IMG/VR virus record: IMGVR_UViG_3300020034_000004
Span: 33,490-97,489 of that record
DNA from: a virus
Length of the DNA: 64,000 nucleotides
Direction: 5' to 3' (one strand)
Below, in pieces: positions 239 through 18,909 of the stretch. Under the pieces are notes generated by a model that saw nothing but the letters and a program-made list of their open reading frames with translations, did no database searches and was not told the DNA's origin. Each line of letters begins with the position of its first letter. The first letter of the stretch is position 1. Both the position numbers and the translations under genes were made by a program.

Positions 239-613
239 TGGAGTCGGGCGGATTCGAACCGCCGTGCTTCATTCTTCTAAATAAATCATTATACAGTCAT
301 TACTATTCATTGAGACTTTACAATTTGAAGGTGTCTGTGGAATAGCTCCCGCTACCTATAGCATTTTCTCCTGTGCCTTCAGGTTCAATTGTTATTAAAT
401 TGTAACTATTTTGGATTCGGACGGTATAGTTACCGTCCTAGCTAGTCTTTTATCAGACAGTTGCTAGGGAAGCAGAGCGTAGAATAGCCTCTGCCTCTGC
501 GACAATGTTATAATTATCTGCATTTATAGTTTGTTAGCTGTTTTAAGACTCTGCCAACTAAGTCTGACTGCGTATCTATTCTTCCAAACAAAGTCGAAAC
601 CAATTACGACCCC
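239..613 (-). ncRNA. ssrA: tmRNA
   Basis: 5' GGGGUCGUAAUUGGUUUCGAC and 3' T-arm GGCGGUUCGAAUCCGCC-CGACUCC-A, with a G3:U70 Ala acceptor. Internal tag ORF 521..453 after AUAAAU reads ADNYNIVAEAEAILRSASLATV*. Confidence 0.95.
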
Positions 614-735
614 TTAAACAAGTTTTCTTTAAATCTATTTATTGCATTAACGGCATCTTCATACCTGTTGAATCTACCAAGATGTTTAGCTTTGCCATCT
701 ATAATTGTTTTCGCTCTCCAACATTGCCCACAAGT
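604..735 (-). pseudogene. AP2 DNA-binding domain remnant (relic of an HNH-AP2 endonuclease)
   Basis: Manual translation gives WRAKTIIDGKAKHLGRFNRYEDAVNA, an AP2-type W.A....GK..HLG.F....A..A pattern. No start codon; the stop lies in the tmRNA 5' end. Confidence 0.6.
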
Positions 736-806
736 GCCCCTGCTGGGATTCGAACCCAGAATGCGAGTTTAGGAAACTCGAAGTTTATCCCTTAGCTTAC
801 AAAGGC
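735..806 (-). tRNA. tRNA-Arg(CCT)
   Basis: Cloverleaf; anticodon arm CGAGT-TT CCT AA-ACTCG; TTCGAAT T-loop. Confidence 0.9.
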
Positions 807-882
807 TTACCGCCAGCATGTTGCTACCTGCACCGATTCGAACGGCCATGCTGACTGGGAGAGCGTATACACTCTCCGTAGC

Positions 883-1179
883 TCAAGAAGGAGTTACTAG
901 ACCAAACACATTGGCTTTGTTAGTCCATCCATTTACATGTCCATGATTATTACTAATCTGAACTCTATCACCATCTACCGCCGAAATCAAGTGCAAATAA
1001 AATCTGCGGCCAATCTTGGCAAAGACAATGTCACCTTTAGATAGTACCCTGTCAACTGGTCTGATATCAACCGGCTGCCGACTATAAATGAGTGGTACCA
1101 TTGAGTTACCGCCCTCTTTGTATTCTTTAATGGTTTCTCCTGCTAGGAGCCTCTGTACCATTAGTTCTTTGACGTTCAC
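883..1179 (-). CDS. Peptidase S24/S26-like domain protein
   Basis: GNSMVPL...GDIV...LHLI pattern typical of the S24/S26 beta fold. Confidence 0.55.
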   Translation of the reverse strand: MNVKELMVQRLLAGETIKEYKEGGNSMVPLIYSRQPVDIRPVDRVLSKGDIVFAKIGRRFYLHLISAVDGDRVQISNNHGHVNGWTNKANVFGLVTPS

Positions 1180-1180
1180 G

Positions 1181-1255
1181 TGCCCTTGAAGGGATTCGAA
1201 CCCTCATCATCCAATTACGGTCAAACTACTTAGGAGGTAGCGCCGGTACTCAGGT
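1181..1255 (-). tRNA. Non-canonical tRNA-Arg(CCT)-like gene: no D-arm in the normal position, degenerate acceptor stem
   Basis: Anticodon arm GCTAC-CT CCT AA-GTAGT; T-arm GAGGG-TTCGAAT-CCCTT; D-loop-like TAATTGGA in the variable region. Confidence 0.55.
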
Positions 1256-1259
1256 AAAT

Positions 1260-1385
1260 TGGTGGACGGATAAGTTGGTAATTACTCCAACTAAGATTCT
1301 AGTTACCTATTACACACGTTACTCCGGAGTGCCGCGTGCACTTACTTCCCCAATATCCTCACCTTTTACAGTTATTGGCCGTCCC
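1260..1385 (-). ncRNA. Candidate ~126 nt structured RNA ending in ACCA
   Basis: Closing helix GGACGG/CCGUCC-ACCA; internal helices CCAAUA/UAUUGG, UGCACG/CGUGUG and AGUUGG/CCAACU. Confidence 0.45.
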
Positions 1386-1386
1386 G

Positions 1387-1453
1387 TGCCCCTAAGCGGA
1401 ATTGCACCGCTAACTGTCGGATTCGGATTCTGACGGTCAATCTTTCTAAGGGC
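1387..1453 (-). tRNA. D-armless tRNA-like gene, anticodon CCG (Arg)
   Basis: 7-bp acceptor GCCCTTA/TAGGGGC-A; T-arm AGCGG-TGCAATT-CCGCT; extended anticodon stem with loop AT CCG AA; no D-stem. Confidence 0.5.
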
Positions 1454-1470
1454 AATTATTCTGTTATATC

Positions 1471-1935
1471 CTAATCTTTACGATGATATTCTTCTATGAT
1501 TTCTTCATCTATTGCATCTTCACGTCTGAATTGACTTAAAGAGAAATACTGCCAAATCCAGAATATTAGATTCGGTACCGCCACCGACAGTAGAACCAGC
1601 CACTCACCAGTAGCAATATAGCACGATGAAGCAAACAACCACAAGCAAGCACCGGCAAGACCAGATGCCTTACCAACGGGCGGTATATTGAACATCAAAA
1701 AAGTCAATCCACATAGAATGGTAATAATTGCTATCGCTCCCCAAATAATTGGAAGAGAATTACCTAAACTACTCATAGCATTGAATAACGAAGAAGTACC
1801 CGCTATTTTAGTGAATGGTAGAATGAAAGCAAATCCAATACCATACGAAAAGGTAGATAACAAAAAGGGCCACATTAATGGATTAAATGTTTCACCTCTG
1901 GAGCTACTGGTTACTCTACTAAAGTACTTGTTCAT
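1471..1935 (-). CDS. Membrane protein (about 4 TM)
   Basis: 154 aa with several hydrophobic segments. Confidence 0.75.
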   Translation of the reverse strand: MNKYFSRVTSSSRGETFNPLMWPFLLSTFSYGIGFAFILPFTKIAGTSSLFNAMSSLGNSLPIIWGAIAIITILCGLTFLMFNIPPVGKASGLAGACLWLFASSCYIATGEWLVLLSVAVPNLIFWIWQYFSLSQFRREDAIDEEIIEEYHRKD

Positions 1936-2086
1936 ACTTAATTATAACATAGCACTTGTTAAGACACGGTGCACCACAGGGTCCTGACGGGTCAATACGT
2001 CTACCGCCCGTTTCCGCCAAGCGTACTTTAGGAGACGTAACATGTAAATTAACCGTATCGGAGTTGGTTACCGAACTTCCGCTTTG

Positions 2087-2159
2087 AGGCCCCTGAGAGA
2101 ATTGAACTCTCGTCTATGGGGTTGCAACCCATCGCCTAGAACCACTCAGCCAAGGGACC
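2087..2159 (-). tRNA. tRNA-Cys(GCA)
   Basis: ATGGG-TT GCA AC-CCCAT; U73 discriminator. Confidence 0.9.
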
Positions 2160-2241
2160 ATAATGCCACATAGACCTTGCTTATATAACATTTTGATTAT
2201 TTTACTCTATAATGTGGAGCATGGCACAATCGAACCATGAG

Positions 2242-2314
2242 TGGAGAATATGGAAATCGAATCCATCGGACAGGTATCTTGCAAAGATTCCTCGCTTATC
2301 CCAGAGCATTCCCC
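2242..2314 (-). tRNA. tRNA-Ala(TGC), atypical D-arm
   Basis: GGGGAAT/ATTCTCC-A acceptor with G3:U70; loop TT TGC AA. Confidence 0.75.
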
Positions 2315-2333
2315 AAGAAATAATATTGTAATA

Positions 2334-2362
2334 ATTATAGCACGAACTTGCATGAATGTCAA
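2334..2362 (-). promoter_or_regulatory. sigma70/HrdB-type promoter
   Basis: TTGACA-17-TATAAT with extended -10 TGn. Confidence 0.8.
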
Positions 2363-2488
2363 GAAGAATACGACGTAAGAAATAATGAGATAGATAATAA
2401 GCTTTGAGGTCTTTTAGTTTTACAAGGAGCATACCAACTTCCTTGGGGCGTTGTCATCACCCGGACTAGTATTTAGTCTAACAGATGC

Positions 2489-2881
2489 TTAGTGGTCTGT
2501 CAAACCTTCTTGTGCACTTTGAACTAGACTTCGTTCTCCGTCTATTAAATCGTTAACGGATAAACTACCAGCCTTATAGAAGTTAATCGGAGCATCTTCT
2601 GCTACTATCTCTTCTGTTACATCTGGCTGTAGACCTTCTTCTAGATTAGAGAGGACTTCTTCGAGGGATTCATTTACAATACCCTCGTTTTCGTTGTACT
2701 GGTCGTAGAAGTCACATAGCATTGCGTCACGCTCAGCAACCGCTTCTTCATGGGCAATTCGTGCTGCTTGCAACGCACCCTCAGCAACAAGTAAATTATC
2801 TTCAGTTACTGTCAATTTATCTAAAGTTGGCGCAAATCGTCTACGCTTCTTCTCAAACTCCAAAAACTCTTCTGCGTTCAT
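2489..2881 (-). CDS. Hypothetical acidic protein
   Basis: 130 aa ORF, tightly packed with the upstream gene. Confidence 0.7.
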   Translation of the reverse strand: MNAEEFLEFEKKRRRFAPTLDKLTVTEDNLLVAEGALQAARIAHEEAVAERDAMLCDFYDQYNENEGIVNESLEEVLSNLEEGLQPDVTEEIVAEDAPINFYKAGSLSVNDLIDGERSLVQSAQEGLTDH

Positions 2882-2886
2882 TTTTC

Positions 2887-3726
2887 CTACTTACATGCTG
2901 TTTTAATAGTGTTGATGTAACCCCAGACATCTCGACCCTTGGTAGCGCCAGGTGGATAGTATAATGCTGGACGACCCTGAGAAATCCAGCGTCTAGCTCC
3001 GCCTACGCCCAAATTGTAGGACGCAATGGCGTCCTCAATGGTGTTGATTTGATTGTCGTTTACAGCCATCTTCAAATAATCAAACACAAACTTGAAGGAT
3101 AATTCTGGAACCAACCGCTGCTCTTCAGTCCATTCAGGATGAGCCTCGCCATTGATTTGAGCTAGACCTACGTCTCTTTCGTCGGCAAAACCGACGGCTC
3201 CTGCATCCCAACCAGACTCTTGAGTTATAACACCACAAACAATAACTGGTGTGATTGCCCCAAGTGCCGGGTATTTAAGTAATTCAGCTTTAACAATTCT
3301 ATCTAAGTCTGGAAATAACAAAGCCTTAGAAGTTTTAGGACCAATAGCTCCATCTGCTGATTCTCCAACCTTTTGCTGAAATGCAACCACTTTACTCTTG
3401 GTTACCGGGCCGAACACACCATCAGCAGCGATGTTGGTTCCTAGTCTTCTGTTCAAGGCCGTTTGATACGCCTTGACTGCGCCAACAACTGCCCTCTCAT
3501 TTGCGTTAGCTGGTGCCTTTTTACCGATGTAATTTGTACCTACAATAGGTAACTTATAATATGGTCCTGGCTTATCGGTTTTATACGCTAATGTACCGCC
3601 GATGCTTGACCATGAGCCTCTACCTGTCATTTTGTTTTTAACTACCTTTCCAGATGTATTTGTATTATCTGGAAATAGTATATCACGAAATATATACAAA
3701 ATGATAACTAAGACTAACGTCAGCAC
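2887..3726 (-). CDS. Membrane-anchored lytic transglycosylase with peptidoglycan-binding domain
   Basis: N-terminal TM; DGVFGPVT and DGAIGPKT PG-binding repeats; SLT motifs QES, GLAQIN, ASYNLG. Confidence 0.85.
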   Translation of the reverse strand: MLTLVLVIILYIFRDILFPDNTNTSGKVVKNKMTGRGSWSSIGGTLAYKTDKPGPYYKLPIVGTNYIGKKAPANANERAVVGAVKAYQTALNRRLGTNIAADGVFGPVTKSKVVAFQQKVGESADGAIGPKTSKALLFPDLDRIVKAELLKYPALGAITPVIVCGVITQESGWDAGAVGFADERDVGLAQINGEAHPEWTEEQRLVPELSFKFVFDYLKMAVNDNQINTIEDAIASYNLGVGGARRWISQGRPALYYPPGATKGRDVWGYINTIKTACK

Positions 3727-3732
3727 AAGATA

Positions 3733-4017
3733 CTACTGTCTTACATATTTGATAGTGATAACTTGATGAGCTTCTACCGGATAAAATTCTACACGCATAT
3801 TAGAAGAATCTAATTCACCATCAAGAGAATCTCGATAGGAAAGCCCAACGAAATGGTTTGGCTGGTCGATATAAACGTTTTCATAAACATTTCCCCAACG
3901 CCACTCTTCAACAATTTCAGATTGAACCTGACTGTAACCGAGACTACGAATAAAATCATTTGGGTCGGCATAAGAGTCTTCTTTGATATACTCTAGCCAT
4001 TGTTCATTTAAATTCAC
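3733..4017 (-). CDS. Hypothetical protein
   Basis: 94 aa; AAGGAG RBS upstream. Confidence 0.7.
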   Translation of the reverse strand: MNLNEQWLEYIKEDSYADPNDFIRSLGYSQVQSEIVEEWRWGNVYENVYIDQPNHFVGLSYRDSLDGELDSSNMRVEFYPVEAHQVITIKYVRQ

Positions 4018-4038
4018 TTTAGCTCCTTAGATTGAAAA

Positions 4039-4065
4039 TAGGCCGGTATATAATATACCGGCCTA
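4039..4065 (-). terminator. Intrinsic terminator-like hairpin after tRNA-Tyr
   Basis: TAGGCCGGTATA/TATACCGGCCTA inverted repeat followed by TTTT on the minus strand. Confidence 0.65.
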
Positions 4066-4068
4066 CCG

Positions 4069-4150
4069 TGCGCCTGGACGGATTCGAACCGCCTCACCCT
4101 AAAGAATGGCTTTACAGGCCACCGCAACTCTCCAACTTTGCCGCAGACGC
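4069..4150 (-). tRNA. tRNA-Tyr(GTA)
   Basis: TGGC-CT GTA AA-GCCA; long variable region. Confidence 0.9.
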
Positions 4151-4240
4151 ATAACCTCTTTGCTAGTTTTCCATATAAACCGCCTGGGTAACTAGCTAAC
4201 CAACCGGATGGTATTGACAGGATGAGGTACCTTGTCAAGT

Positions 4241-4555
4241 TTAGACTCTTTCAAGTCTACGCTTACGTAGTCTACGAGAAATCAATATTGTGGGTCTCTG
4301 ATTACGTAAGTAGTTTTTCTTGTCCTGATGAGTAGTTAAGACTTCACCCTGTTGCACCTCTGTACGAGATGCCTGCCAGGAACTAAAACTACCTAAGAAC
4401 AAAGCTATCATAGAAACTAAAGAAACGAAAATAACGCTTTCCAACCAACCGAGGAAGAAAGATAATACTGTGAACGGTAACCAAAAACATGTTGACCATC
4501 CATGGAACCCCTTTAGTATATATGGGTCACCAATGATTTCCATTAGTTTCTTCAA
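4241..4555 (-). CDS. Small membrane protein
   Basis: Two TM segments and a basic tail. Confidence 0.65.
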   Translation of the reverse strand: MKKLMEIIGDPYILKGFHGWSTCFWLPFTVLSFFLGWLESVIFVSLVSMIALFLGSFSSWQASRTEVQQGEVLTTHQDKKNYLRNQRPTILISRRLRKRRLERV

Positions 4556-4556
4556 G

Positions 4557-4634
4557 TAGCGGGATACTGGAATTGAACCAGCTTATTGCTGAAGCTTATG
4601 AGGCTTGCCGAGATTTACCAACCTCCCACCCGCA
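4557..4634 (-). tRNA. tRNA-Met(CAT), 1:72 mismatch (initiator-like)
   Basis: AAGC-CT CAT AA-GCTT; TTCAATT T-loop. Confidence 0.75.
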
Positions 4635-4654
4635 TGACTTTTTCAAGTAGTTCT

Positions 4655-4683
4655 ACTTTATCATACTACAATGGCTCTGTCAA
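4655..4683 (-). promoter_or_regulatory. sigma70-type promoter
   Basis: TTGACA-17-TAAAGT with TGn. Confidence 0.7.
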
Positions 4684-4744
4684 CTCAATCGCACAGTTAT
4701 GCAAAAATCATCATTGGGAATTCGACAATGGTCATTTATTCTTG

Positions 4745-4813
4745 TAGCGCGTGAGGGTGATGCACCCTCCTATCAGTCCTTATGAGAGACTGCTGTTCAC
4801 TGGAACCCGCGCC
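4745..4813 (-). tRNA. tRNA-Met/Ile2(CAT), short D-arm
   Basis: CAGTCT-CT CAT AA-GGACTG; T-arm GAGGG/CCCTC. Confidence 0.7.
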
Positions 4814-4983
4814 AGGCCAGCCTATTATTTATACTCTTGTACTGGAACAGAGTGAGTTGGTGGGGGCGTCTGTCAGCTTTGGATTATGCAGGAAACACGC
4901 CCCTTCAAACCTGCGTTATCGGTACATAGATATGCATCTCGTCTCCGACCTTCACATACAAGACTTCGAAATCTTGCAGCTTG

Positions 4984-5055
4984 TACTCCCAGAGGGAATC
5001 AAACCCTCTCCTAATGCCTGAGAAACATTTATACTTGTCGTTATACTATGGGAGC
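4984..5055 (-). tRNA. tRNA-Glu(CTC)
   Basis: Acceptor GCTCCCA/TGGGAGT; loop TT CTC AG. Confidence 0.8.
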
Positions 5056-5145
5056 TTATTAAATTATTACATAGTTCTTCAATTAACCATTGCGCTACAT
5101 ACGCCTCTCTATCCAATAGATAATCTAGTTCTATTCGAAAACAAG

Positions 5146-5226
5146 TATCGCAGACGGGAATCGAACCCGCAAGCCGAAGCATCTGATTGAAAGTCAGACC
5201 ACCGTAACCAATACAGTACCTGCGAT
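5146..5226 (-). tRNA. tRNA-Glu(TTC) with an extra variable arm
   Basis: TCTGA-CT TTC AA-TCAGA; variable GC-TTCG-GC hairpin. Confidence 0.8.
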
Positions 5227-5353
5227 ATAATGCCAAGCAGTTACAAAAGGCTGCAACGCTTGGCAGCATTATTTCAAAAACTAGATAATTCCGGAGAACA
5301 TCTAGTAACAATTGTGCAAACAAGCTGCACTGCCTTATCGGCGTAATAAGTCT

Positions 5354-5382
5354 ATCTTACCATACCGACGAATGCCTGTCAA
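5354..5382 (-). promoter_or_regulatory. sigma70-type promoter
   Basis: TTGACA-17-TAAGAT with TGn. Confidence 0.8.
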
Positions 5383-5645
5383 GCTATTTTGGCCGGTGCT
5401 AGTTTATTGTTCTTAACTACAACTAGTACTGTCTTATCCTGATACCATTCATTAATGTCTATACCATTATCTAATGCCAAAGAGAATGGACATTCTCTTA
5501 AGTCTTGATAATCTTCTAAACAATTCTTGCTATGAAGAATGTAGACCGTTTCTTCTTTACTTACCGCCTTCGCAAAATGTGCACGAACGTGCCTTTTTAT
5601 TCCAACAATTTTTTCAATTATTGATGCATCTACAATTTCAGTCAT
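5379..5645 (-). CDS. Hypothetical protein
   Basis: 88 aa; start overlaps the upstream stop codon. Confidence 0.7.
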   Translation of the reverse strand: MTEIVDASIIEKIVGIKRHVRAHFAKAVSKEETVYILHSKNCLEDYQDLRECPFSLALDNGIDINEWYQDKTVLVVVKNNKLAPAKIA

Positions 5646-5845
5646 TATTCGTTATCAAGTCTCTTTAGATTAGGATTTTGACCTTGCATAATTCCAACCT
5701 TACCAAGACGAACCTTGATTTGACCGGGTAATGAATTATGCCACTGAAGCATATGTTCCTTTACTGTTCGATTCACGTCTTCATCTGTAGAATATGAACT
5801 CAGTACATAGTCAACAACAATTCCATCTTCATAAATGAACATTAT
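5645..5845 (-). CDS. Hypothetical protein
   Basis: AAGGAG RBS ahead of MFIYEDG; the longer ORF-track start lies inside a tRNA. Confidence 0.55.
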   Translation of the reverse strand: MMFIYEDGIVVDYVLSSYSTDEDVNRTVKEHMLQWHNSLPGQIKVRLGKVGIMQGQNPNLKRLDNE

Positions 5846-5853
5846 GCTCCTTG

Positions 5854-5937
5854 TACGCCAGGTGAGGTTCGAACTCACGTCGGGCTTTCGCCATCAGTTT
5901 AAAAGACTGTTCCCATCGGCCACTAGGGGACTGGCGC
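5854..5937 (-). tRNA. tRNA with TTT (Lys) anticodon on a class II (long variable arm) body
   Basis: CAGT-CT TTT AA-ACTG; variable arm GGC-GAAA-GCC. Confidence 0.75.
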
Positions 5938-5974
5938 ATATTTTGTTTCAATTCACACTTATTACAAAGTTAAG

Positions 5975-8974: not shown

Positions 8975-8975
8975 G

Positions 8976-13396: not shown

Positions 13397-13432
13397 AATA
13401 TTTCCCTTTCGGCTCATTCGCTATATGAGCAT
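13397..13432 (-). promoter_or_regulatory. Leader hairpin and RBS, Y-RNA-mimic operator candidate (copy 1)
   Basis: ATGCTCA-tatagcgaa-TGAGC-CGAAAGGGAAATATT-ATG. Confidence 0.65.
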
Positions 13433-13448
13433 TAGATAGGTGAGCTAA

Positions 13449-13592
13449 CTATTCATCCAGACTGGCATGAATTACGTTTCTTATATCTTCCTGAAGTTGA
13501 TTGGTTCTCTCATGAGTCCAATACCCGTCGCCTCTTGCGAACGCCTCGACGAATGCGAATCCCAGGGCAACTTCTAAATTTTCTTTGTTCAC
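13449..13592 (-). CDS. 47-aa hypothetical protein starting immediately after tRNA-Ile
   Basis: Manual translation VNKENLEVALGFAFVEAFARGDGYWTHERTNQLQEDIRNVIHASLDE*. Confidence 0.45.
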   Translation of the reverse strand: MNKENLEVALGFAFVEAFARGDGYWTHERTNQLQEDIRNVIHASLDE

Positions 13593-13593
13593 G

Positions 13594-13666
13594 TGCGCCA
13601 GGTCGGGGTCGAACCGACATCAACCTGTATATAAGACAGGGACACTTACCTTTGTGCTACCGGCGC
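13594..13666 (-). tRNA. tRNA-Ile(TAT)
   Basis: CCTGT-CT TAT AT-ACAGG; acceptor GCGCCGG/CTGGCGC-A. Confidence 0.85.
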
Positions 13667-14060
13667 GCTTGAGATATGCCAATGCTTTCTCAAGACCCTC
13701 GATGTTATCACCAAGCATCCCAATTCCAACATTGCAATTCCCACAAAGACCACCACGAAACAATCCAGTCTTATGGTTATGGTCGATTACAATTGCAGGT
13801 CTAAGTTCACATGAGTAGCATAGACCACTCAACGCTTCTTGAACCTGCTCAAGAGGTATGTTGTACTTCTGGGCCTTGTGCTTACCTGTTGCCTTGTAAG
13901 CACTGACTCTATCACGTTGCTTCTGGCGATTGCTACCCTTTGAGTAGTACTCTCGCTGATAAGCATTGTGACACACTTTGCACTTGCCAGTCAACTTACC
14001 TCGCTTGGTAGCGAATTCAGATTCTGGCTTCTCTTTATTACACTCAATACAAATCTTCAT
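13620..14060 (-). CDS. Endonuclease VII-like homing endonuclease
   Basis: CIEC...CKVC; DHNHKTGLFRGGLCGNCNVGIG; 3' end runs into tRNA-Ile. Confidence 0.85.
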   Translation of the reverse strand: MKICIECNKEKPESEFATKRGKLTGKCKVCHNAYQREYYSKGSNRQKQRDRVSAYKATGKHKAQKYNIPLEQVQEALSGLCYSCELRPAIVIDHNHKTGLFRGGLCGNCNVGIGMLGDNIEGLEKALAYLKRAGSTKVSVPVLYTG

Positions 14061-14171
14061 ATTTGGATTATATCAAGGATTATATCCTAAAACCAAAACT
14101 AAAGACCCGATACCGTAGAGTGAGGTTATCACTTATTCGTATCGAGTCCTGTGCACTTTTTACAGTGCCAG

Positions 14172-14262
14172 CGGAAGCGGGGTGGTTTCGAACCCCCAAG
14201 GGCCATAAGCCTCGCTCGCTTTCAAGGCGAGTGCCGTCGTCCAAAATTCGGCTTGCGCTTCC
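14172..14262 (-). tRNA. tRNA-Ser(TGA)
   Basis: CTCGC-CT TGA AA-GCGAG; long variable arm; G73. Confidence 0.9.
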
Positions 14263-14265
14263 ATG

Positions 14266-14330
14266 ACCAGATATGTTGATTGAGAACGTGTTTATTTGTT
14301 TGAAAGATAAACGTACTCATTCGACCCGGT
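14266..14330 (-). ncRNA. Short Y RNA (Ro-binding stem only)
   Basis: 5' CCGGGUCGAAUG...UUAUC...AACAUAUCUGG 3'; contains the GNCGAAN(0-1)G Ro motif. Confidence 0.75.
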
Positions 14331-14406
14331 TGGTGGGCGTGGGGAATTTCGAAATCCCGACCTCTTCGGTGTAAACGAAGCGCTCTTCCTCTGAGACTAC
14401 ACGCCC
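14331..14406 (-). tRNA. tRNA-Val(TAC), CCA encoded
   Basis: TTCG-TT TAC AC-CGAA. Confidence 0.9.
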
Positions 14407-14437
14407 AAGATATTTAATTGTTATCGAATTGTTATTA

Positions 14438-14562
14438 TTGAGGATATGTTATAGAAATCGAGTTTTTAACGCTCTTCCATTAAGCTACAGACCGAAGTCC
14501 AGTGGGATTCGAACCCACATCTCTCTTTTGACATAAGATAATCGAATTCATTCGACCCTCAA
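14438..14562 (-). ncRNA. yrlA: YrlA-type Y RNA with full tRNA-like domain
   Basis: GAGGGUCGAAUG 5' strand; T-arm GUGGG-UUCGAAU-CCCAC; UUCG-closed acceptor; D-arm UAGCUUAAUGGAAGAGC; 3' AACAUAUCCUC. Confidence 0.88.
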
Positions 14563-14582
14563 ACTTATGGTATCTCTAACGG

Positions 14583-14654
14583 CGGCCCCGACGAGAGTTG
14601 AACTCGCTCTAACACCTTGACAGGGTGACGTGCGCACCGGTACACTACGGAACC
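14583..14654 (-). tRNA. tRNA-Asp(GTC)
   Basis: CACC-CT GTC AA-GGTG; G73. Confidence 0.9.
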
Positions 14655-14660
14655 ATTTCA

Positions 14661-14801
14661 TCATTCAGAACATTTATTACCATAATGGTTAAGCACATCC
14701 ATCTTAACAGACAATCTTCGAACTTTCAAATAGTCTCGTTGCTTTTGCCTATTATTTTGTCTATACTTTGCTTGGGACACTTTACGTTTCTCTTCATCCA
14801 T
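14661..14801 (-). pseudogene. Truncated HNH endonuclease N-terminus
   Basis: MDEEKRK...VLNHYGNKCSE* stops where the second Cys of CxxC is expected. Confidence 0.55.
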
Positions 14802-14927
14802 AGTAATATAGTATCATTATATATAATCTCCATCACAGGCCAAATTTGGTGGGACATTATAAAGGGCTGTCCCGGTTACCCTGTTATATCATACCACGTT
14901 TCGAACCGCAATACAATACCTACGTTA

Positions 14928-15049
14928 TGATGGACATGTTATGGTTTCGGAGATTGTCCCGGCTTCCCGTGGGACTATAAAGGACTCGAACCTTCTGCCG
15001 TTTATATACCATTTATATGTGAGATAACCGAAAATCCTTCGGCCCATCA
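14928..15049 (-). ncRNA. Y RNA with T-arm and degenerate tRNA-like domain
   Basis: GAUGGGCCGAAGG...UUAUC...GAAGG-UUCGAGU-CCUUU...AACAUGUCCAUC. Confidence 0.78.
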
Positions 15050-15072
15050 AGCTTGTTGGTTTTTAGACCAAG

Positions 15073-15147
15073 TGGGAAAGGTCGGATTCGAACCGACGCC
15101 CTTTCGCGTATCAGACGATTGCTCCAACCAGACTGAGCTACTCTCCC
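15073..15147 (-). tRNA. tRNA-Ile(GAT)
   Basis: Loop CT GAT AC; canonical D and T arms. Confidence 0.9.
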
Positions 15148-15182
15148 ATTGGGTTGGTTTGAGAAACCATTTCCTAAAACAG

Positions 15183-15255
15183 TGCGGATGGTGGGATTCG
15201 AACCGACGCGCTCTTGTATCCAAAACAAGCAGGCTGCCCTACACCCACAATTCCA
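15183..15255 (-). tRNA. Degenerate tRNA-Pro(TGG)
   Basis: CTTGT-TT TGG AT-ACAAG and T-loop present; acceptor stem pairs poorly. Confidence 0.5.
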
Positions 15256-15267
15256 TATTACCTCAAG

Positions 15268-15339
15268 TCGGGTACCCCAGGGTCGAACTGGGTTTCTTCT
15301 GTTCCCAAAACAGACGGATTACCGTCTTCCTCGTACCCG
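15268..15339 (-). tRNA. tRNA-Pro(TGG)
   Basis: CGGGTAC/GTACCCG-A; TCTGT-TT TGG GA-ACAGA. Confidence 0.9.
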
Positions 15340-15356
15340 AAACCGTTTATTTTTAT

Positions 15357-15790
15357 AGTGGCTAACGTCTTAACGGCTTTCACCGCTCCATCCACTGTTG
15401 TGAGCAACCTACGCTATTGATAAATTTAGAATAAATCATCTACGTTGGCGATTAATCTGCTCTGAACTCACAAGTCACAAAGTAGAATCTGATTCCAAGG
15501 ATTGGCTACCTCGTCGGCTACACGGTACCGTCAGACTATTAACTTTTCTCATCTACTAAGAATAAAGTGAGAGGAAGGGTGCTACCTTCACGCGGGGGGA
15601 GACCTTAGCATGTAAGATTACCCCACGACCATTCGTTTGCCGCTAAGCACAGATTCAACAAGTCGCTAAACTTGCCTCCTAGTCTCACCGCATTAGCCTA
15701 ACTAGGGTACTTCTGCCGAACGTGCATTACGAGCTACGTCTCCGACACTCGCATTTCTGCCACTCTCAGACGAAGGTGCTACCTTCGTCT
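15357..15790 (-). ncRNA. Candidate large (~430 nt) structured ncRNA
   Basis: No minus-strand ORF of 60 aa or more between tRNA-Trp and tRNA-Pro; two GAAGG-UAGCA-CCUUC hairpins; long-range GAGAG/CUCUC and AGUGG/CCACU helices. Confidence 0.55.
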
Positions 15791-15793
15791 TTG

Positions 15794-15864
15794 CACCCGA
15801 CGAGAGATTCGAACTCTCACGCTAGAGTTTTGGAGGCTCTGCGACTCAACCTACGCTGTCGGAT
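15794..15864 (-). tRNA. tRNA-Trp(CCA)
   Basis: AGAGC-CT CCA AA-ACTCT; G73. Confidence 0.85.
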
Positions 15865-15888
15865 ATAGGTCTTTCGACCACATTTACT

Positions 15889-15918
15889 ACTCTATCACAT
15901 CTTCATGCATCATGTCAA
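15889..15918 (-). promoter_or_regulatory. sigma70-type promoter
   Basis: TTGACA-18-TAGAGT with TGn. Confidence 0.65.
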
Positions 15919-16026
15919 GATTCATATCTTCCATAATCTCTTGGTATTCTTCTGTCCATACCCCGGAAATCAGATTCTCACCAAGAACCATTACTACGTC
16001 TATATTAGCATCTGCTGTTGGCATTG

Positions 16027-16335
16027 TCAAGACCCTTCAAGCAAGTCAATCAAATCTGACGTAGAATAATCGTTACCTAATTGTGATTCTAAATTATTTT
16101 TAATGTCTGTTTCATCCATATCACCGGGTACTTCAATTTCATATTCATACCCAGTTGAATTGGACGGAGGGGTGGAATGTTTTCCATTGTGGTTACACTC
16201 GTGGTTGAAGTATACAACGACACGAGCAAATCCGTCAACAACTTCTGTCACTTCAAATTCAGGACGACTCGTATGAGTCGTAGATTTGGCTATGTCAGCC
16301 TTTCTGACATAAGGTGAAAGCGTACCTTTCCACAT
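16027..16335 (-). CDS. Hypothetical protein
   Basis: 102 aa; ATG directly after tRNA-Gln. Confidence 0.65.
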   Translation of the reverse strand: MWKGTLSPYVRKADIAKSTTHTSRPEFEVTEVVDGFARVVVYFNHECNHNGKHSTPPSNSTGYEYEIEVPGDMDETDIKNNLESQLGNDYSTSDLIDLLEGS

Positions 16336-16336
16336 G

Positions 16337-16410
16337 CTGCTCGCCTAGGATTCGAACCTAGAAAACCTTGGGTCAGAGCCAAGTGGGTCTACCAATTCCC
16401 CCAACAAGCA
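16337..16410 (-). tRNA. tRNA-Gln(CTG)
   Basis: CTTGG-CT CTG AC-CCAAG; U1:A72, G73. Confidence 0.9.
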
Positions 16411-16538
16411 AGGAGGTCTCATAACGGTTTTCATATCGTCACCACCCAGCCAAATGGAAGGATGTGCTAATTACACCGATGAAACCAAAGCACGGTGGCC
16501 TGCTGTCTTCCGACCCTGAACCTTTTCCGTACTTTTAT

Positions 16539-16567
16539 ATCTTAGCACATCACTCAAGCGATGTCAA
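16539..16567 (-). promoter_or_regulatory. sigma70-type promoter
   Basis: TTGACA-17-TAAGAT with TGn. Confidence 0.8.
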
Positions 16568-16577
16568 CTTCAATATT

Positions 16578-16859
16578 CTAGATAAACTCCGTATTTTCAG
16601 CTTCTGCCCAAGCAATACTATCTTGATTGTATTGTCTTGCATAAGTAGATAACATGTTCTTCAATATACCGGCTCGGTGCGAGTTAAATTCAACACACCA
16701 ACATGCGTTTTGAAATTCACTACTTGGCTCACTAAGCCAGCACCCATGTATCTCATCTACACCAGTACGCACTAATTGGTCGATTACCTTCCAAAAATTA
16801 GACCACTTCTTCTGTGATAGCTTATCATCACTATTATCAATACTGATATATACAATCAT
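16578..16859 (-). CDS. Hypothetical protein
   Basis: 93 aa; overlapping start/stop with the upstream gene. Confidence 0.7.
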   Translation of the reverse strand: MIVYISIDNSDDKLSQKKWSNFWKVIDQLVRTGVDEIHGCWLSEPSSEFQNACWCVEFNSHRAGILKNMLSTYARQYNQDSIAWAEAENTEFI

Positions 16860-17245
16860 CCTTGGGCCTTATGTTTAAAAGCTTTGATTGGATATTCTTC
16901 AACAGGTGTAAATACATACCGGTCAATCCAGGATTCCTCATTGACCCAATCTTGGTCAAAATATTCATCACCATTGGACTCAATATAAGAATCACCATTC
17001 TTTGAGATGTCATCCCACCAGGAATATCCAAATAATTTACCGTCACTCTTACGCTTGATGATAGTAATCATATTTAAGCCTTGGTAGAAAGCATCATTTT
17101 CTAGAAAATGACCAACATATTCATATTTTCTACCATCGCGGTCTGTGCGGTCTTCACCTTCATAAACCGCAAGATATGATGTATTTTCTTCTTCTTCATA
17201 AGGTTTAAATTCGAATACCGGCCAATCTGGGTCTAATTTACTCAC
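16856..17245 (-). CDS. Hypothetical acidic protein
   Basis: 129 aa; translationally coupled. Confidence 0.7.
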   Translation of the reverse strand: MSKLDPDWPVFEFKPYEEEENTSYLAVYEGEDRTDRDGRKYEYVGHFLENDAFYQGLNMITIIKRKSDGKLFGYSWWDDISKNGDSYIESNGDEYFDQDWVNEESWIDRYVFTPVEEYPIKAFKHKAQG

Positions 17246-17865
17246 TTGAAATCCCTTCTTTTTATTTTGGTTATAATACGTTCGCCTTTACGATTAAATA
17301 GTTGTACCTCTGAACGAGCTACAATACCTTCAGCCTCAAAGTTACCCCATTCGGACTTTAGGCCGGATTCAACGATATCAATTGCGTCATACAATGTACC
17401 GCGACCAATCTGCGGTACATAATCAATATCTAACTTATTAGCAATGTCTTCAACATTATTACGCTCAAGCCACCATTCATCAATTCTGACATCAAATAGA
17501 ACAAAAGCTTGGTCTTCTCTATAGACACCACCTTTTTGAATACCCGGACCATACCCCTCGCCATAAAGTGTTAGAGCCGGGAGTTCGGCCTCGTAGAAAT
17601 TCTCTGGCTGAAACTTTTCCTGCAAATGCTTTAGAAGTTTAGTTGGTATCAAGGCATTACCCGTGCGCCCACCAAATTCAACACCAAGGCCAAGACCAGC
17701 AAAATCAACACGAATATTAGTACCGTCTACTTTTTCAGTGAACTCCCATTGATTGAGTGCTAAATATTCTAGCTCAGGAGTAGTCCAGTTACCACGAATC
17801 ATTGGCTTATTTGGTGCGTCTAAGTCACGCTTAAAAATACTATTTATCTTATGATACTCTTCCAT
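17242..17865 (-). CDS. RNA ligase (Rnl2-like adenylation domain)
   Basis: Motif I EKVDGTN, YGEGYG, FVLFD, EGIV, TKIK. Confidence 0.9.
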   Translation of the reverse strand: MEEYHKINSIFKRDLDAPNKPMIRGNWTTPELEYLALNQWEFTEKVDGTNIRVDFAGLGLGVEFGGRTGNALIPTKLLKHLQEKFQPENFYEAELPALTLYGEGYGPGIQKGGVYREDQAFVLFDVRIDEWWLERNNVEDIANKLDIDYVPQIGRGTLYDAIDIVESGLKSEWGNFEAEGIVARSEVQLFNRKGERIITKIKRRDFK

Positions 17866-18130
17866 CTGTACCGGCTCCCTTCTCAAATCTCTTATCTCTA
17901 TATGGGTTGCCCATATACCACCAAGTGTATGTTTTACGCTTGGTAATTAACTTTAAATATCCTACATCATTGATATGTCGAGTTGGCTTCGAACAATAGC
18001 GTCCATCATAACCTTCACCGAAGTCTTCATCTCGCCCTCTGCACTTATAGAATGTTGGAAAGTGTCCATACATTCCACTTGTGCGCACCCATGGTCTTTT
18101 GGTTTTATCGTATCTCGAAAACAGTGACAT
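17849..18130 (-). CDS. Hypothetical protein
   Basis: 93 aa in a coupled run. Confidence 0.55.
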   Translation of the reverse strand: MSLFSRYDKTKRPWVRTSGMYGHFPTFYKCRGRDEDFGEGYDGRYCSKPTRHINDVGYLKLITKRKTYTWWYMGNPYRDKRFEKGAGTDGRVS

Positions 18131-18307
18131 TACTTACCCCAGATTCTTGTTTTGGTTGTTATACCCCAAACAGAATAGCTGATACCCGCCTTCTTTTCAA
18201 AATCATCTCTATTGAAATTAAGTGCTCTTGCCATTAATTTCGCAGACCATAACCATTTGGCGGTATAGATAGGAATGTTTTCCTTACCCATCTGTTCCTC
18301 TACTATT

Positions 18308-18577
18308 TCAAACATCGAATAACTCCAATTGTCCAAGCACTTGTGATGGGGTTGAGTCACCTTGTCTATACTTAGTACAAACTATTCCATCATTACCAAC
18401 ATCTTCTAATTCCTCTACCGGCATTTCTGTGACGATAGAACCAGCAATTTCATGAAACATTGGCATCTCCGGGTCATCATTTCTAAATACACAATCAAAG
18501 CATTGACCGGCCTCAATGAATTCAATTACTTCGTGAGCATATTGAAATCTGTGGTTTCTATGTGCAGTATATGTCAT
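18308..18577 (-). CDS. Hypothetical Cys-containing protein
   Basis: CFDC...C; coupled to the upstream gene. Confidence 0.55.
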   Translation of the reverse strand: MTYTAHRNHRFQYAHEVIEFIEAGQCFDCVFRNDDPEMPMFHEIAGSIVTEMPVEELEDVGNDGIVCTKYRQGDSTPSQVLGQLELFDV

Positions 18578-18909
18578 TGAATTACCCACTCACCATCTAT
18601 TAGATACTCTACTCTTAGCTTAGGTGGAATCATTTCTTGTTCTACCGCGACTTGGACCAAAGTGTCTTGATTCGACATTTGATTTACCCATAGCTTAAAC
18701 TTCACAGAAGTAGCCATTTTCTTCCAAGCCTTCTTCTTATTCTGAAGTTGACTTCTTTCTTCACGGCTCTCACCTACTGCACCAGATGGTGGGTGAATGA
18801 TTCTAACTCCAGTGTCGCGTTTATCTTGATTTTGTCCACCTTTACCACCTGAACGAAAGGTCTGAACTTCACAGTCATGAACTGTGACTGTCAGTATTTT
18901 CTTCCTCAT
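18574..18909 (-). CDS. Peptide chain release factor-like GGQ domain protein (ArfB/PrfH-like)
   Basis: FRSGGKGGQNQDKRDTGVRIIH...ERSQLQNK. Confidence 0.9.
   Translation of the reverse strand: MRKKILTVTVHDCEVQTFRSGGKGGQNQDKRDTGVRIIHPPSGAVGESREERSQLQNKKKAWKKMATSVKFKLWVNQMSNQDTLVQVAVEQEMIPPKLRVEYLIDGEWVIQ

What the first reader, a model, noticed from the sequence alone, without database searches (positions are those of the whole stretch)
239..18909. Co-located RNA repair and ribosome rescue toolkit
Seen within 19 kb: tmRNA, a stand-alone GGQ hydrolase, an Rnl2-like ligase, a nucleotidyltransferase, Ro with Y RNAs, about 24 tRNAs and several tRNA mimics. Established: in bacteria Ro/Y loci associate with RtcB ligases, and PrfH works with RtcB2 on damaged ribosomes. 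Inference: a phage counter-defence against host tRNA/rRNA-cleaving immunity, with an ATP-dependent ligase in place of RtcB.
Basis: inference. Interest (0 to 1): 0.7.

Follow-up and report, generated by a model that had tools for sequence, protein, structure and literature searches.

The report
Phage tRNA island with RNA-care genes
An uncultured soil phage carries, beside its roughly 30 tRNA genes, real genes for RNA quality control, RNA sealing and ribosome release, but this mix is already known from large phages of actinobacteria and its parts are inherited separately, not as one machine.

Summary
Every listed part is real. On the minus strand lie a full tmRNA, 20 tRNAs plus a missed tRNA-Ser(UGA), a 111-aa GGQ-only release-factor domain, a minimal Rnl2/Rnl5-type RNA ligase, an RlaP nucleotidyltransferase, Ro60 and three Y RNAs.

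The stretch is two-thirds of a ~26-kb tRNA island just after the terminase gene of a Stanwilliamsviridae-like soil actinophage.

The parts are not one co-inherited system:
- Among 11 other Ro-bearing phage records, GGQ occurs in 2, this ligase family in 2-3, RlaP in 2-3, and three complete genomes have none.
- None of 80 GGQ loci has Ro within 10 kb.
- The hub is the tRNA array. 48 of 80 GGQ loci have tRNAs within 10 kb, peaking 0-4 kb upstream.
- One relative keeps ligase, orf129 and RlaP adjacent inside a tRNA array, without Ro or GGQ.

No RtcB or polynucleotide kinase was found. The GGQ protein is neither PrfH nor ArfB.

The counter-defence idea is plausible but already published for large phages (PMC7824862) and is untested here. 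This scan noted the same kind of kit on at least five other genomes, with similar follow-up verdicts.

Side findings:
- Ro60 is split by 159 nt carrying a copy of its own leader, and an independent sample confirms the split.
- An SRP-RNA-like gene lies in the island.

The parts
236..613 (-). One-piece tmRNA with tag ORF (tag ends ...SLATV)
   Evidence: Rfam RF00023 96.5 bits, model 1-374; ARAGORN
734..16410 (-). Span holding 20 tRNA genes: Arg CCU, Cys, Tyr, Met, Glu CUC, Glu UUC, Lys UUU, Lys CUU, Gly GCC, Arg UCU, Gly UCC, Phe, Ile UAU, Val UAC, Asp, Ile GAU, Pro UGG x2, Trp, Gln CUG
   Evidence: ARAGORN; 17 of them reach or pass the Rfam tRNA gathering score (29 bits) in the E-value scan, 14 in the gathering scan
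14173..14262 (-). tRNA-Ser(UGA) with long variable arm, missed by ARAGORN
   Evidence: RF01852-type hit 34.4 bits, anticodon loop CUUGAAA. Syntenic tRNA-Ser(tga) in Blueeyedbeauty
18574..18909 (-). 111-aa GGQ-only release-factor domain protein
   Evidence: PF00472 2.7e-17; phrog_3122 9.5e-45; GGKGGQ motif; AF2 model and Foldseek match RF1/RF2 domain 3
16578..19283 (-). Tightly packed string of 8 small ORFs (orf125, GGQ, three unknowns, ligase, orf129, orf93) with overlapping stops and starts. Likely one transcription unit
   Evidence: ORF coordinates; only weak promoter-like sites inside
17242..17886 (-). Minimal ATP-dependent RNA ligase, nucleotidyltransferase domain only. The likely start is the ATG 21 nt inside, giving 207 aa
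   Evidence: PF09414 2e-16; motifs EKVDGT, EGIVAR, KIKRR. Gene called as 207 aa elsewhere. Model pLDDT 88.5; best folds are the T4 Rnl2 NTase domain (2e-10) and Naegleria Rnl5
16856..17245 (-). orf129, start overlaps the ligase stop; function unknown
   Evidence: Homologue (51%) again directly after the ligase in L103; no family hit
16458..16551 (-). SRP (4.5S) RNA-like hairpin, 48 nt upstream of tRNA-Gln
   Evidence: RF00169 36.4 bits (GA 40), E 1.7e-7 for the genome; conserved UCAGG..GGAA..AGCAG core; fold z -2.3
14928..15049 (-). Y RNA 3. Closing helix GGGCCGAAGGA / ACAUGUCC; resembles the Y RNA upstream of Catera Ro
14438..14562 (-). Y RNA 2 (YrlA-like): Ro-binding-type closing helix plus permuted T-arm / hairpin / D-arm module
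   Evidence: RF02553 28.9 bits (below GA 69), E 1.3e-4 locally; motif pair
14266..14330 (-). Y RNA 1, a minimal bulged hairpin with the same closing helix
   Evidence: fold z -2.4
12845..13417 (-). Ro60 N-terminal part (190 aa, Rsr profile 15-176)
   Evidence: PF05731 3.2e-12; NF041674 3.3e-43; 69% identical to Blueeyedbeauty Ro
12686..12844 (-). Spacer interrupting Ro60. Its last ~45 nt repeat the native Ro leader (hairpin, CGAAAGG, AUGAGYAAC)
   Evidence: Absent from 9 related Ro loci. No other copy in the genome. Bridged without gaps by a contig from an independent sample
11597..12685 (-). Ro60 C-terminal part (362 aa: rest of TROVE plus the Ro60 vWA domain) with its own ribosome-binding site and AUG
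   Evidence: PF25045 1.5e-48; NF041674 2.4e-78 (profile 177-530)
10007..10627 (-). RlaP-family Pol-beta nucleotidyltransferase
   Evidence: PF10127 29.9 bits (cut-off 23); HGS...DYD motif. 51% homologue next to the ligase in L103; 39-44% homologues in Streptomyces BE phages about 7 kb from Ro
13620..14060 (-). Endonuclease VII-type (homing-type) gene inside the island; context, not part of the kit
   Evidence: PF02945 1.3e-16. The variant strain carries other sequence across 13416-14092
19451..24535 (-). Context: terminase large subunit with two inteins (20120-24535) followed by an HNH endonuclease (19451-20116). This marks the conserved position of the island
   Evidence: the same order terminase, HNH, tRNAs in Karimac and Blueeyedbeauty

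Best explanation
The stretch is the larger part of a ~26-kb tRNA/tmRNA island. It sits directly downstream of the terminase gene of an uncultured soil actinophage related to Streptomyces clusters BE/BK (Stanwilliamsviridae). The island is a mosaic of small, separately promoted units gathered around the tRNA array. It is not one co-evolved machine.

Shown:
- The identity of the parts.
- Their arrangement.
- Their separate inheritance in other phages.

Inferred: three loosely coupled modules keep translation running during infection.
1. Supply and rescue. Phage tRNAs replace depleted or cleaved host tRNAs. tmRNA (with host SmpB) and the bare GGQ hydrolase free ribosomes stalled on broken mRNA or tRNA. 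The GGQ gene family travels with tRNA arrays.
2. Sealing. The minimal Rnl2/Rnl5-type ligase, its coupled orf129 and the RlaP nucleotidyltransferase refill and reseal nicked structured RNAs that carry 3'-OH and 5'-phosphate ends. These ends are left by metal-dependent nucleases. No kinase for 5'-OH ends was found.
3. Quality control. Split but selected Ro60 binds three Y RNAs. As shown for other Ro60 proteins, it probably recruits host PNPase to misfolded or damaged RNA.

Whether the pressure behind this is host RNA-targeting immunity or simply high translational demand and host shut-off is not decided by the sequence.
For: Identity of the parts.

Position and synteny with Stanwilliamsviridae: terminase, HNH, tRNAs Gln/Trp/Pro/Ile, Y RNA, Ro, tRNAs, tmRNA.

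Many sigma-70-like promoters on the minus strand: 71 against 45.7 +/- 7.6 in shuffles.

Separate inheritance:
- INPHARED distributions: Ro in 355 records, GGQ in 259 (205 mycobacteriophage, none Streptomyces), this ligase in 127, RlaP-like in 99.
- Presence/absence matrix over 12 records.
- In Catera, GGQ lies between DNA polymerase and UvsX, 12 kb from Ro and 19 kb from the tmRNA.

tRNA array as hub:
- 48 of 80 GGQ loci have tRNAs within 10 kb and 29 have five or more.
- The median nearest tRNA is 811 nt away, and 83% of tRNAs are co-oriented with GGQ.
- tRNA density peaks 0-4 kb upstream of GGQ.
- 5 of 9 Ro loci have 14-29 tRNA genes within 10 kb.

Ligase-orf129-RlaP adjacency inside a tRNA array with a tmRNA, but without Ro or GGQ, in G014.

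Y RNAs next to Ro across phages (PMC4201824, PMC12135203).

Ro halves under purifying selection between two natural strains: 7 synonymous against 5 non-synonymous changes, p = 0.014, no stops or frameshifts.
Against: - The co-occurrence sample is small, phylogenetically clumped and includes incomplete contigs. tblastn and Pfam can miss divergent homologues.
- Genome-level association of these rare genes with large tRNA-rich actinophages is clearly above background. 'Mosaic' versus 'system' is therefore a matter of degree.
- All parts are co-oriented in one 19-kb block, and GGQ and the ligase share one tight ORF string. This would also fit coordinated use.
- No expression, biochemical or host data exist. 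The host is unknown.
- The record is about 74% complete, so a kinase or RtcB could lie in the missing part.
Confidence: 0.6

Rival explanations
1. The block is one integrated counter-defence system against host tRNA- or rRNA-cleaving immunity. Ro/Y RNA, an ATP-dependent ligase (standing in for RtcB), RlaP, GGQ factor and tmRNA act in sequence on the same damaged substrates.
For: - All parts sit co-oriented in 19 kb.
- RtcB is absent.
- RlaP restores damaged tRNA ends before ligation in vitro (PMC12776372).
- The concept is published for jumbo phages (PMC7824862).
- Ligase and RlaP are adjacent in a relative.
Against: - Components assort independently: 0 of 80 GGQ loci have Ro; three complete Ro phages have none of the others; G014 has ligase and RlaP without Ro or GGQ.
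- No polynucleotide kinase was found. Breaks with a 2',3'-cyclic phosphate and 5'-OH from PrrC, RloC, colicin or MazF-type nucleases therefore could not be sealed by this ligase alone.
- The GGQ protein lacks the PrfH recognition domain.
- The island consists of many separately promoted units.
Confidence: 0.15
2. The island serves translational capacity and host take-over, not defence evasion. The tRNAs fit phage codon demand or replace host tRNAs and mRNAs lost through phage-induced shut-off. tmRNA and GGQ clear the resulting non-stop ribosomes. Ro/Y RNA redirects host PNPase.
For: - A near-complete tRNA set (29 in the genome) cannot be assigned to particular nuclease targets.
- Thermus phage Ro60 with Y RNA binds and attenuates host PNPase (PMC12135203).
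- GGQ genes follow tRNA arrays in very different phages.
Against: - Repair enzymes (ligase, RlaP, and further left a CCA-adding-type enzyme, a Macro domain and metallophosphoesterases) make more sense if RNA is being broken.
- Phage tRNAs have been argued to evade anticodon nucleases (PMC10264068; listed in the search, not read).
Confidence: 0.2
3. The co-location is incidental. The region after the terminase is an insertion hot spot where homing endonucleases and accessory genes accumulate. The ligase and GGQ genes serve other processes, such as nick sealing in replication.
For: - HNH (two copies), Endo VII and two inteins lie in or next to the block.
- A strain from another sample carries other sequence in place of 13416-14092.
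- The closest annotated phage homologue of the ligase (55% identity) is in a replication module of a 65-kb podophage, and 6 of 7 ligase loci have no tRNA.
- The Catera GGQ gene lies between DNA polymerase and UvsX.
Against: - The strong, local and oriented GGQ-tRNA association.
- Ligase-orf129-RlaP inside a tRNA array in G014.
- The RlaP-like gene lies inside the tRNA island of BE phages.
- Y RNAs are conserved beside Ro.
Confidence: 0.1

Closest known systems
tRNA/tmRNA/Ro islands of Streptomyces phages, clusters BE and BK (Stanwilliamsviridae; e.g. Blueeyedbeauty, Karimac)
   Same: - Same gene order: terminase, HNH, tRNA array, Y RNA, Ro-like protein, more tRNAs, tmRNA.
- Ro is 61% identical.
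- An RlaP-like nucleotidyltransferase lies inside the island in BE phages.
- A short PF09414 ligase occurs in BK phages (PMC5764925, PMC13191466).
   Different: - G+C here is about 42%, against about 49% reported for two BE2 phages.
- Those phages lack the GGQ protein.
- BK phages keep the ligase about 30 kb from Ro and add a second ligase with a polynucleotide kinase.
- Their Ro is one polypeptide.
- No SRP-like RNA was found in them.
Cluster C1 mycobacteriophages (Bxz1, Catera, ET08)
   Same: - Ro60 with an adjacent Y RNA.
- About 30 tRNAs and a tmRNA.
- The same 111-aa RF-1 domain protein (57% identity).
- A strong RlaP (PMC4201824, PMC4131195).
   Different: - Myoviruses with the parts spread over more than 30 kb among replication genes.
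- No PF09414 ligase.
- Ro is not split.
RNA repair and ribosome rescue complement described for jumbo phages (Iyer et al. 2021, PMC7824862; Burroughs and Aravind 2016, cited there)
   Same: The same idea and largely the same families: tRNAs, Rnl2-family ligases, RlaP, TROVE protein with a tRNA-like partner, a CCA-adding enzyme, phosphoesterases, Macro domains and a peptidyl-tRNA hydrolase step.
   Different: - This is not a jumbo phage. The record is 97 kb at about 74% completeness, and its GGQ protein is on record on a 132.6-kb contig.
- The hydrolase is a GGQ domain and not Pth2.
- No polynucleotide kinase or RtcB was found.
Bacterial rsr-yrlBA-rtcBA operon (Salmonella) and Ro60/Y RNA/PNPase complexes
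   Same: Ro60 orthologue encoded next to Y RNAs, one of which has the YrlA-type tRNA-like module.
   Different: No RtcB, RtcA or RtcR. Three Y RNAs are interleaved with tRNA genes. Ro is in two pieces.
PrfH-RtcB2 and ArfB ribosome rescue factors
   Same: A GGQ catalytic domain without stop-codon recognition.
   Different: - No PrfH decoding-site domain and no RtcB2 neighbour.
- No ArfB-type tail by profile: 24.7 bits against a cut-off of 100.
- A conserved C-terminal module of three helices and a beta-hairpin of its own.
T4 Pnkp with Rnl1/Rnl2 healing and sealing of PrrC-cut tRNA
   Same: A phage ATP-dependent ligase of the Rnl2 fold.
   Different: No kinase-phosphatase partner was found. The ligase lacks the Rnl2 C-terminal domain.

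Membership tests
Ro60 / Rsr (TROVE) | TROVE HEAT-repeat ring plus Ro60-type vWA domain | tested here: met
   PF05731 and PF25045 (1.5e-48). The NF041674 profile is covered 15-176 and 177-530 by the two ORFs
Ro60 / Rsr (TROVE) | One continuous polypeptide | tested here: not met
   A stop after ...KYRSRTV and a new AUG 159 nt later. All 9 related loci are continuous. The break is confirmed in an independent sample
Ro60 / Rsr (TROVE) | Y RNA partner encoded nearby, with a bulged-C closing helix | tested here: met
   Three RNAs within 1.7 kb upstream. The motif is shared with Blueeyedbeauty, L005, L008 and Catera. Counts: 8 in 0.69 Mb of Ro loci against 1 element (two near-identical contigs) in 2.66 Mb of control loci
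YrlA (RF02553) | Rfam gathering score | tested here: not met
   28.9 bits against 69. Sub-threshold hits also ring in 9 of 14 control genomes
YrlA (RF02553) | Permuted tRNA-like module (T-arm, hairpin, D-arm) inside a Ro-binding stem | tested here: met
   Alignment of 14452-14548 to the model
tmRNA (RF00023) | Full-length match with tRNA-like domain and tag reading frame | tested here: met
   96.5 bits, model 1-374; ARAGORN tag peptide
Rnl2-type RNA ligase | Covalent nucleotidyltransferase motifs and fold | tested here: met
   KxDG, EG(I)V and KxK motifs. Foldseek: 1s68 at 2e-10, Naegleria Rnl5 at 3e-9
Rnl2-type RNA ligase | Rnl2 C-terminal domain; NCBIfam equivalog score | tested here: not met
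   The protein ends right after motif V. TIGR02307 scores 29.3 bits against a cut-off of 197
Rnl2-type RNA ligase | RNA (not DNA) nick sealing | not testable with these tools
   Needs an enzyme assay
RlaP (PF10127) | Profile match above cut-off and the Pol-beta GS...DxD motif | tested here: met
   29.9 bits against 23; HGS...SDYD
RlaP (PF10127) | Gene next to an RNA ligase | tested here: inconclusive
   The two genes are 6.6 kb apart here. They lie within 3.6 kb in relative L103
PrfH | GGQ domain plus a domain recognising the damaged decoding centre; RtcB2 neighbour | tested here: not met
   111 aa with only the GGQ domain. TIGR03072 scores 47.7 bits against 166.65. No RtcB
ArfB | GGQ domain plus a C-terminal tail for the empty mRNA channel; equivalog score | tested here: not met
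   NF006718 scores 24.7 bits against 100, matching residues 6-38 only. ArfB is not among the top fold matches
Rsr-RtcB RNA repair operon | RtcB ligase present | tested here: not met
   No PF01139 match in the 97-kb record. The record is about 74% complete
T4-type healing and sealing pathway | Polynucleotide 5'-kinase / 3'-phosphatase partner | tested here: not met
   No AAA_33 match. No homologue of the Blueeyedbeauty kinase. Two metallophosphoesterases lie 30-40 kb away
Bacterial small SRP RNA (RF00169) | Gathering score | tested here: inconclusive
   36.4 bits against 40, with an intact domain IV core

The most novel reading that the evidence does not exclude
The 111-aa GGQ-only protein represents a distinct, phage-borne class of codon-independent ribosome-rescue hydrolase. 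Its gene travels with tRNA arrays, not with Ro or ligases. Its conserved C-terminal helices and beta-hairpin, unlike the ArfB tail or the PrfH decoding-site domain, would recognise ribosomes jammed by cut tRNA or mRNA. It would work alongside phage tmRNA and replacement tRNAs.
Probability: 0.25. Interest if true: 0.7.

Novelty: new member of a known kind. Interest (0 to 1): 0.35.

Why it matters
If the parts do cooperate, this phage would be the most complete small example of a virus carrying its own maintenance crew for the translation apparatus. That would help explain why large actinophages hoard tRNAs.

As it stands, the value is more modest:
- The co-location shown here does not reflect a co-inherited system.
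- The tRNA array, not Ro, is the element that the GGQ factor, and in one relative the ligase-RlaP pair, follow.
- Three concrete objects are isolated for bench work: a bare GGQ factor of unknown recruitment mode, a minimal ligase with a coupled partner ORF and RlaP, and a naturally split Ro60 that is still under selection.

Tried and rejected
- Near-identical phage in INPHARED: none; only one tRNA matched.
- Group I or II intron in the Ro spacer: no Rfam hit at E<=1, fold no better than shuffles (z +0.5), and only 159 nt. Not excluded without RNA data.
- Spacer as a repeated mobile element: no other copy in the genome or in related loci.
- orf129 as the missing ligase C-terminal domain: the alignment to a full-length phage ligase is not convincing. 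No Pfam, PHROG or NCBIfam hit. The Atlas gave nothing usable for orf129 or orf125.
- PDB sequence search for the RlaP-like protein: no hit.
- Related loci for the RlaP protein in IMG/VR by peptide patterns: none.
The 132.6-kb contig carrying the identical GGQ protein, and the 25-kb contig of a 97% relative, could therefore not be read.
- Expression: no RNA holder listed among public runs.
- Burroughs and Aravind 2016 (PMC5062991) is not held. It is cited only through PMC7824862.
- Ro in five GGQ-plus-tRNA phages, including L046/L050 with a Y-like element: none.

Full report
WHAT IS THERE

The window is the right-hand 64 kb of a 97,489-bp IMG/VR virus record estimated about 74% complete. All relevant features lie on the minus strand.
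- ARAGORN and Rfam find a full-length tmRNA at 236-613 (96.5 bits) and 20 tRNAs between 734 and 16410.
- A permissive Rfam scan adds a tRNA-Ser(UGA) at 14173-14262, two weak tRNA-like hits, a YrlA-like hit, a manA-like hit and an SRP-RNA-like hit.
  - a 111-aa RF-1 domain protein with GGKGGQ (18574-18909);
  - a PF09414 RNA ligase (17242-17886);
  - a PF10127 RlaP nucleotidyltransferase (10007-10627);
  - Ro60.
- Ro60 is in two reading frames, 12845-13417 and 11597-12685. Together they cover the Rsr profile end to end.
- In the whole record, ARAGORN finds 29 tRNAs plus the tmRNA from genome position 24215 to 49899. The finding therefore covers about two-thirds of a ~26-kb island.

WHOSE GENOME

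- The 1471-aa ORF upstream (20120-24535) is a terminase large subunit carrying two inteins.
- The order terminase, HNH, tRNA-Gln/Trp/Pro/Pro/Ile, Y RNA, Ser/Asp, Ro, more tRNAs, tmRNA mirrors Streptomyces phages of clusters BK (Blueeyedbeauty, Ro 61% identical) and BE (Karimac).
- These Stanwilliamsviridae are known to carry more than 40 tRNAs, a tmRNA and a Ro-like protein (PMC5764925, PMC13191466).
- G+C is about 42%, and no near-identical isolate exists.
- Public soil metagenomes from two studies hold the sequence.

Y RNAS

- Three RNAs upstream of Ro (14928-15049, 14438-14562, 14266-14330) close with the same helix: GGG(U/C)CGAA on the 5' side and ACAU(A/G)UC on the 3' side. The helix has a bulged C, a compensatory U-A to C-G change and variable outer pairs.
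- This motif pair occurs exactly three times on the transcribed strand of the 97-kb genome.
- With a structural filter it occurs 8 times in 0.69 Mb of Ro-bearing loci, always on the Ro strand. It occurs once (two near-identical contigs) in 2.66 Mb of Ro-less control loci.
- The middle RNA contains the YrlA hallmark, a T-arm followed by a hairpin and a D-arm.
- Sub-threshold YrlA hits occur in 11 of 12 Ro phage records; in 7 of the 10 other than the window the best hit lies within about 6 kb upstream of Ro. Such hits also ring in control genomes, so position and the helix motif carry the weight.
- Phage Y RNAs beside Ro are established (PMC4201824; PMC12135203, which also uses a conserved CGAA motif).

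THE PROTEINS

GGQ protein:
- It belongs to a large family of proteins mostly 104-146 aa long: at least 1775 homologues, with a conserved C-terminal part.
- The AlphaFold model (pLDDT 81) is a release-factor domain 3 followed by three helices and a beta-hairpin.
- The best structural matches are RF2 and RF1. PrfH is rank 34, and ArfB does not appear.
- By NCBIfam it is far below the PrfH and ArfB cut-offs.

Ligase:
- It belongs to a very large family of proteins about 190-245 aa long, with more than 7900 hits.
- Its model (pLDDT 88.5) matches the T4 Rnl2 adenylyltransferase domain, Naegleria Rnl5 and archaeal Rnl3.
- It stops right after motif V, so it has neither the Rnl2 C-terminal domain nor the Rnl5 N-terminal domain.
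- Its stop overlaps the start of orf129.

Missing partners:
- RtcB is absent from the record, and no polynucleotide kinase was found.
- Left of the window lie a PolyA_pol-type (CCA-adding-like) enzyme, a Macro domain, two metallophosphoesterases and a ClpP.

DO THE PARTS BELONG TOGETHER?

In INPHARED:
- Ro occurs in 355 records: 209 Mycobacterium, 115 Streptomyces.
- The GGQ protein occurs in 259: 205 Mycobacterium, no Streptomyces.
- This ligase type occurs in 127: 40 Streptomyces BK phages, also Lak and T4-like phages.
- The RlaP-like protein occurs in 99: 89 Streptomyces BE phages.

Over 11 other Ro-bearing records:
- GGQ is present in 2, PF09414 in 2-3, RlaP in 2-3, and a tmRNA above threshold in 3.
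- Three complete Ro phages have none of them.
- In Catera the GGQ gene sits between DNA polymerase and UvsX.

In 80 GGQ-centred IMG/VR loci:
- None has Ro within 10 kb. Five whole records with GGQ and many tRNAs lack Ro altogether.
- 48 have a tRNA within 10 kb, 29 have five or more, and 12 of 39 full-length loci have twenty or more.
- The nearest tRNA is a median 811 nt away, and 83% of tRNAs are co-oriented with GGQ.
- tRNA density peaks in the 4 kb upstream.

For the ligase:
- The closest annotated phage homologue (55% identity) lies in a 65-kb podophage replication module.
- Six of seven IMG/VR ligase loci have no tRNA.
- In the 120.8-kb record G014, ligase, orf129 and RlaP lie within 3.6 kb inside an array of 19 tRNAs with a tmRNA nearby. 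That record has no Ro and no GGQ.

The picture is a hub, the tRNA array, to which separate modules attach in different lineages: Ro plus Y RNAs; ligase, orf129 and RlaP; and GGQ. The window happens to unite all of them.

HOW IT MOST LIKELY WORKS

What follows is inference.
- Many sigma-70-like promoters on the coding strand (71 against 45.7 +/- 7.6) suggest many short units. GGQ and the ligase share one tight ORF string.
- The tRNAs would replace host tRNAs.
- The tmRNA and the GGQ hydrolase would release stalled ribosomes.
- The ligase with RlaP would refill and reseal nicked structured RNA. RlaP adds one or two nucleotides to damaged 3' ends and restores aminoacylation of over-trimmed tRNA (PMC12776372).
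- Without a kinase, the ligase would be limited to 3'-OH/5'-phosphate breaks.
- Ro/Y RNA would channel damaged RNA to host PNPase, as shown for other Ro60 proteins (PMC4201824, PMC12135203).
- The counter-defence framing is the published view for large phages (PMC7824862). It is plausible here but not shown. Capacity or shut-off compensation explains the same anatomy.

THE SPLIT RO60

- The N-part ends ...KYRSRTV-stop, and the C-part starts MSNTWRH... Against Blueeyedbeauty (KYRQRNGWTH) no residue is missing.
- The last ~45 nt of the 159-nt spacer repeat the native Ro leader: a hairpin GCUCA-loop-UGAGC, then CGAAAGG, then AUGAGYAAC. The break therefore looks like a gene fission that reused the gene's own translation start.
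- All nine related loci are continuous.
- A contig from a different sample and study bridges 12174-12851 without gaps, at about 99% identity.
- The 12 differences within the two halves are 7 synonymous and 5 non-synonymous (p = 0.014 against neutral expectation), with no stops. The split gene is real and still selected.
- An intron is not excluded, for lack of RNA data.

COMPARISON AND VERDICT

- Each family is already annotated in actinophages, and the concept is published.
- This scan has flagged the same kind of kit on at least five other genomes.
- Three of its follow-up reports reached the same verdict: real genes, not one co-inherited or single system (e1-5986181, e1-5665801, e1-5867413).
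- The finding is therefore a new and unusually complete member of a known kind.
- The more original points are side products: the local GGQ-tRNA-array linkage, the ligase-orf129-RlaP module, the split Ro60 with a duplicated leader, and an SRP-RNA-like gene inside the island.

Noticed in passing
window 12686-12844 and 13418-13445: Ro60 is split. The 3' end of the spacer is a copy of the native Ro leader (hairpin, CGAAAGG, AUGAGYAAC), so both halves start M-S-N behind the same element. An independent soil sample holds the same split. The halves show 7 synonymous against 5 non-synonymous differences.
   Followed up: yes
L008 just before the Ro AUG (about 9500); L006 about 9150; L002 about 13420: In related phages the Ro mRNA leader carries ACAUAUCCC-UUUGAAA-GGGGUCGAA directly before the AUG. 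This is the two strands of the Y RNA Ro-binding helix joined as a hairpin. The window and Blueeyedbeauty have a GCUCA/UGAGC (or GCCCA/UGGGC) plus CGAAA version. Possible translational autoregulation by Ro. The S2 variant strain, however, has a different leader.
   Followed up: partly
window 16458-16551; L106 8566-8658, L109 520-612, L112 1923-2018: An SRP (4.5S) RNA-like hairpin with an intact domain IV core lies 48 nt upstream of tRNA-Gln. SRP RNAs above the Rfam threshold also sit between tRNA genes in viral contigs of 290-497 kb. None was found in the 11 other Ro phage records. A predicted promoter overlaps its 5' stem.
   Followed up: partly
window 15564-15789: manA RNA-like structured element (42.1 bits, gathering score 55.2, E 9.5e-9) between tRNA-Trp and tRNA-Pro.
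   Followed up: no
window 13416-14092: In the ~99% identical strain from another soil sample, this segment (Ro leader, tRNA-Ile(UAU), Endo VII gene) is replaced by unrelated sequence. Contigs break at 13415 and 14093. This is a presence/absence polymorphism around a homing-type endonuclease.
   Followed up: partly
window 20120-24535: The terminase large subunit is interrupted by two inteins, one with a LAGLIDADG endonuclease. The exteins are 48-60% identical to the Blueeyedbeauty terminase.
   Followed up: partly
L017 7846-8628, 9033-9602, 10778-11413; L016 4253-5047, 5674-6228: Left of the window the same phage encodes a PolyA_pol-type (CCA-adding-like) nucleotidyltransferase, a Macro domain protein, two metallophosphoesterases and a ClpP protease. 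These are further RNA-end and tag-proteolysis functions, 15-45 kb from the block.
   Followed up: partly
L046 and L050, 10592-10731: A Y RNA-like closing helix (GGGCCGAAGG ... ACAUGUC) lies 260 nt downstream of a GGQ gene in two near-identical phage contigs that have no Ro gene.
   Followed up: partly
window 5145-5226, 5853-5937; genome 30006-30091: The U34 tRNAs for Glu, Lys and Gln are 82-86 nt long, while their C34 partners are 72-75 nt (ARAGORN lengths).
   Followed up: no
window 236-613: The tmRNA tag ends ...SLATV instead of the usual ...LAA-type ending. The same phage encodes a ClpP.
   Followed up: no
window 9607-9711: An element directly 3' of tRNA-Gly(UCC) has a T-arm-like and a D-arm-like piece in YrlA order but no Ro-type closing helix. 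It gets no Rfam hit, and its fold z is -1.6.
   Followed up: partly
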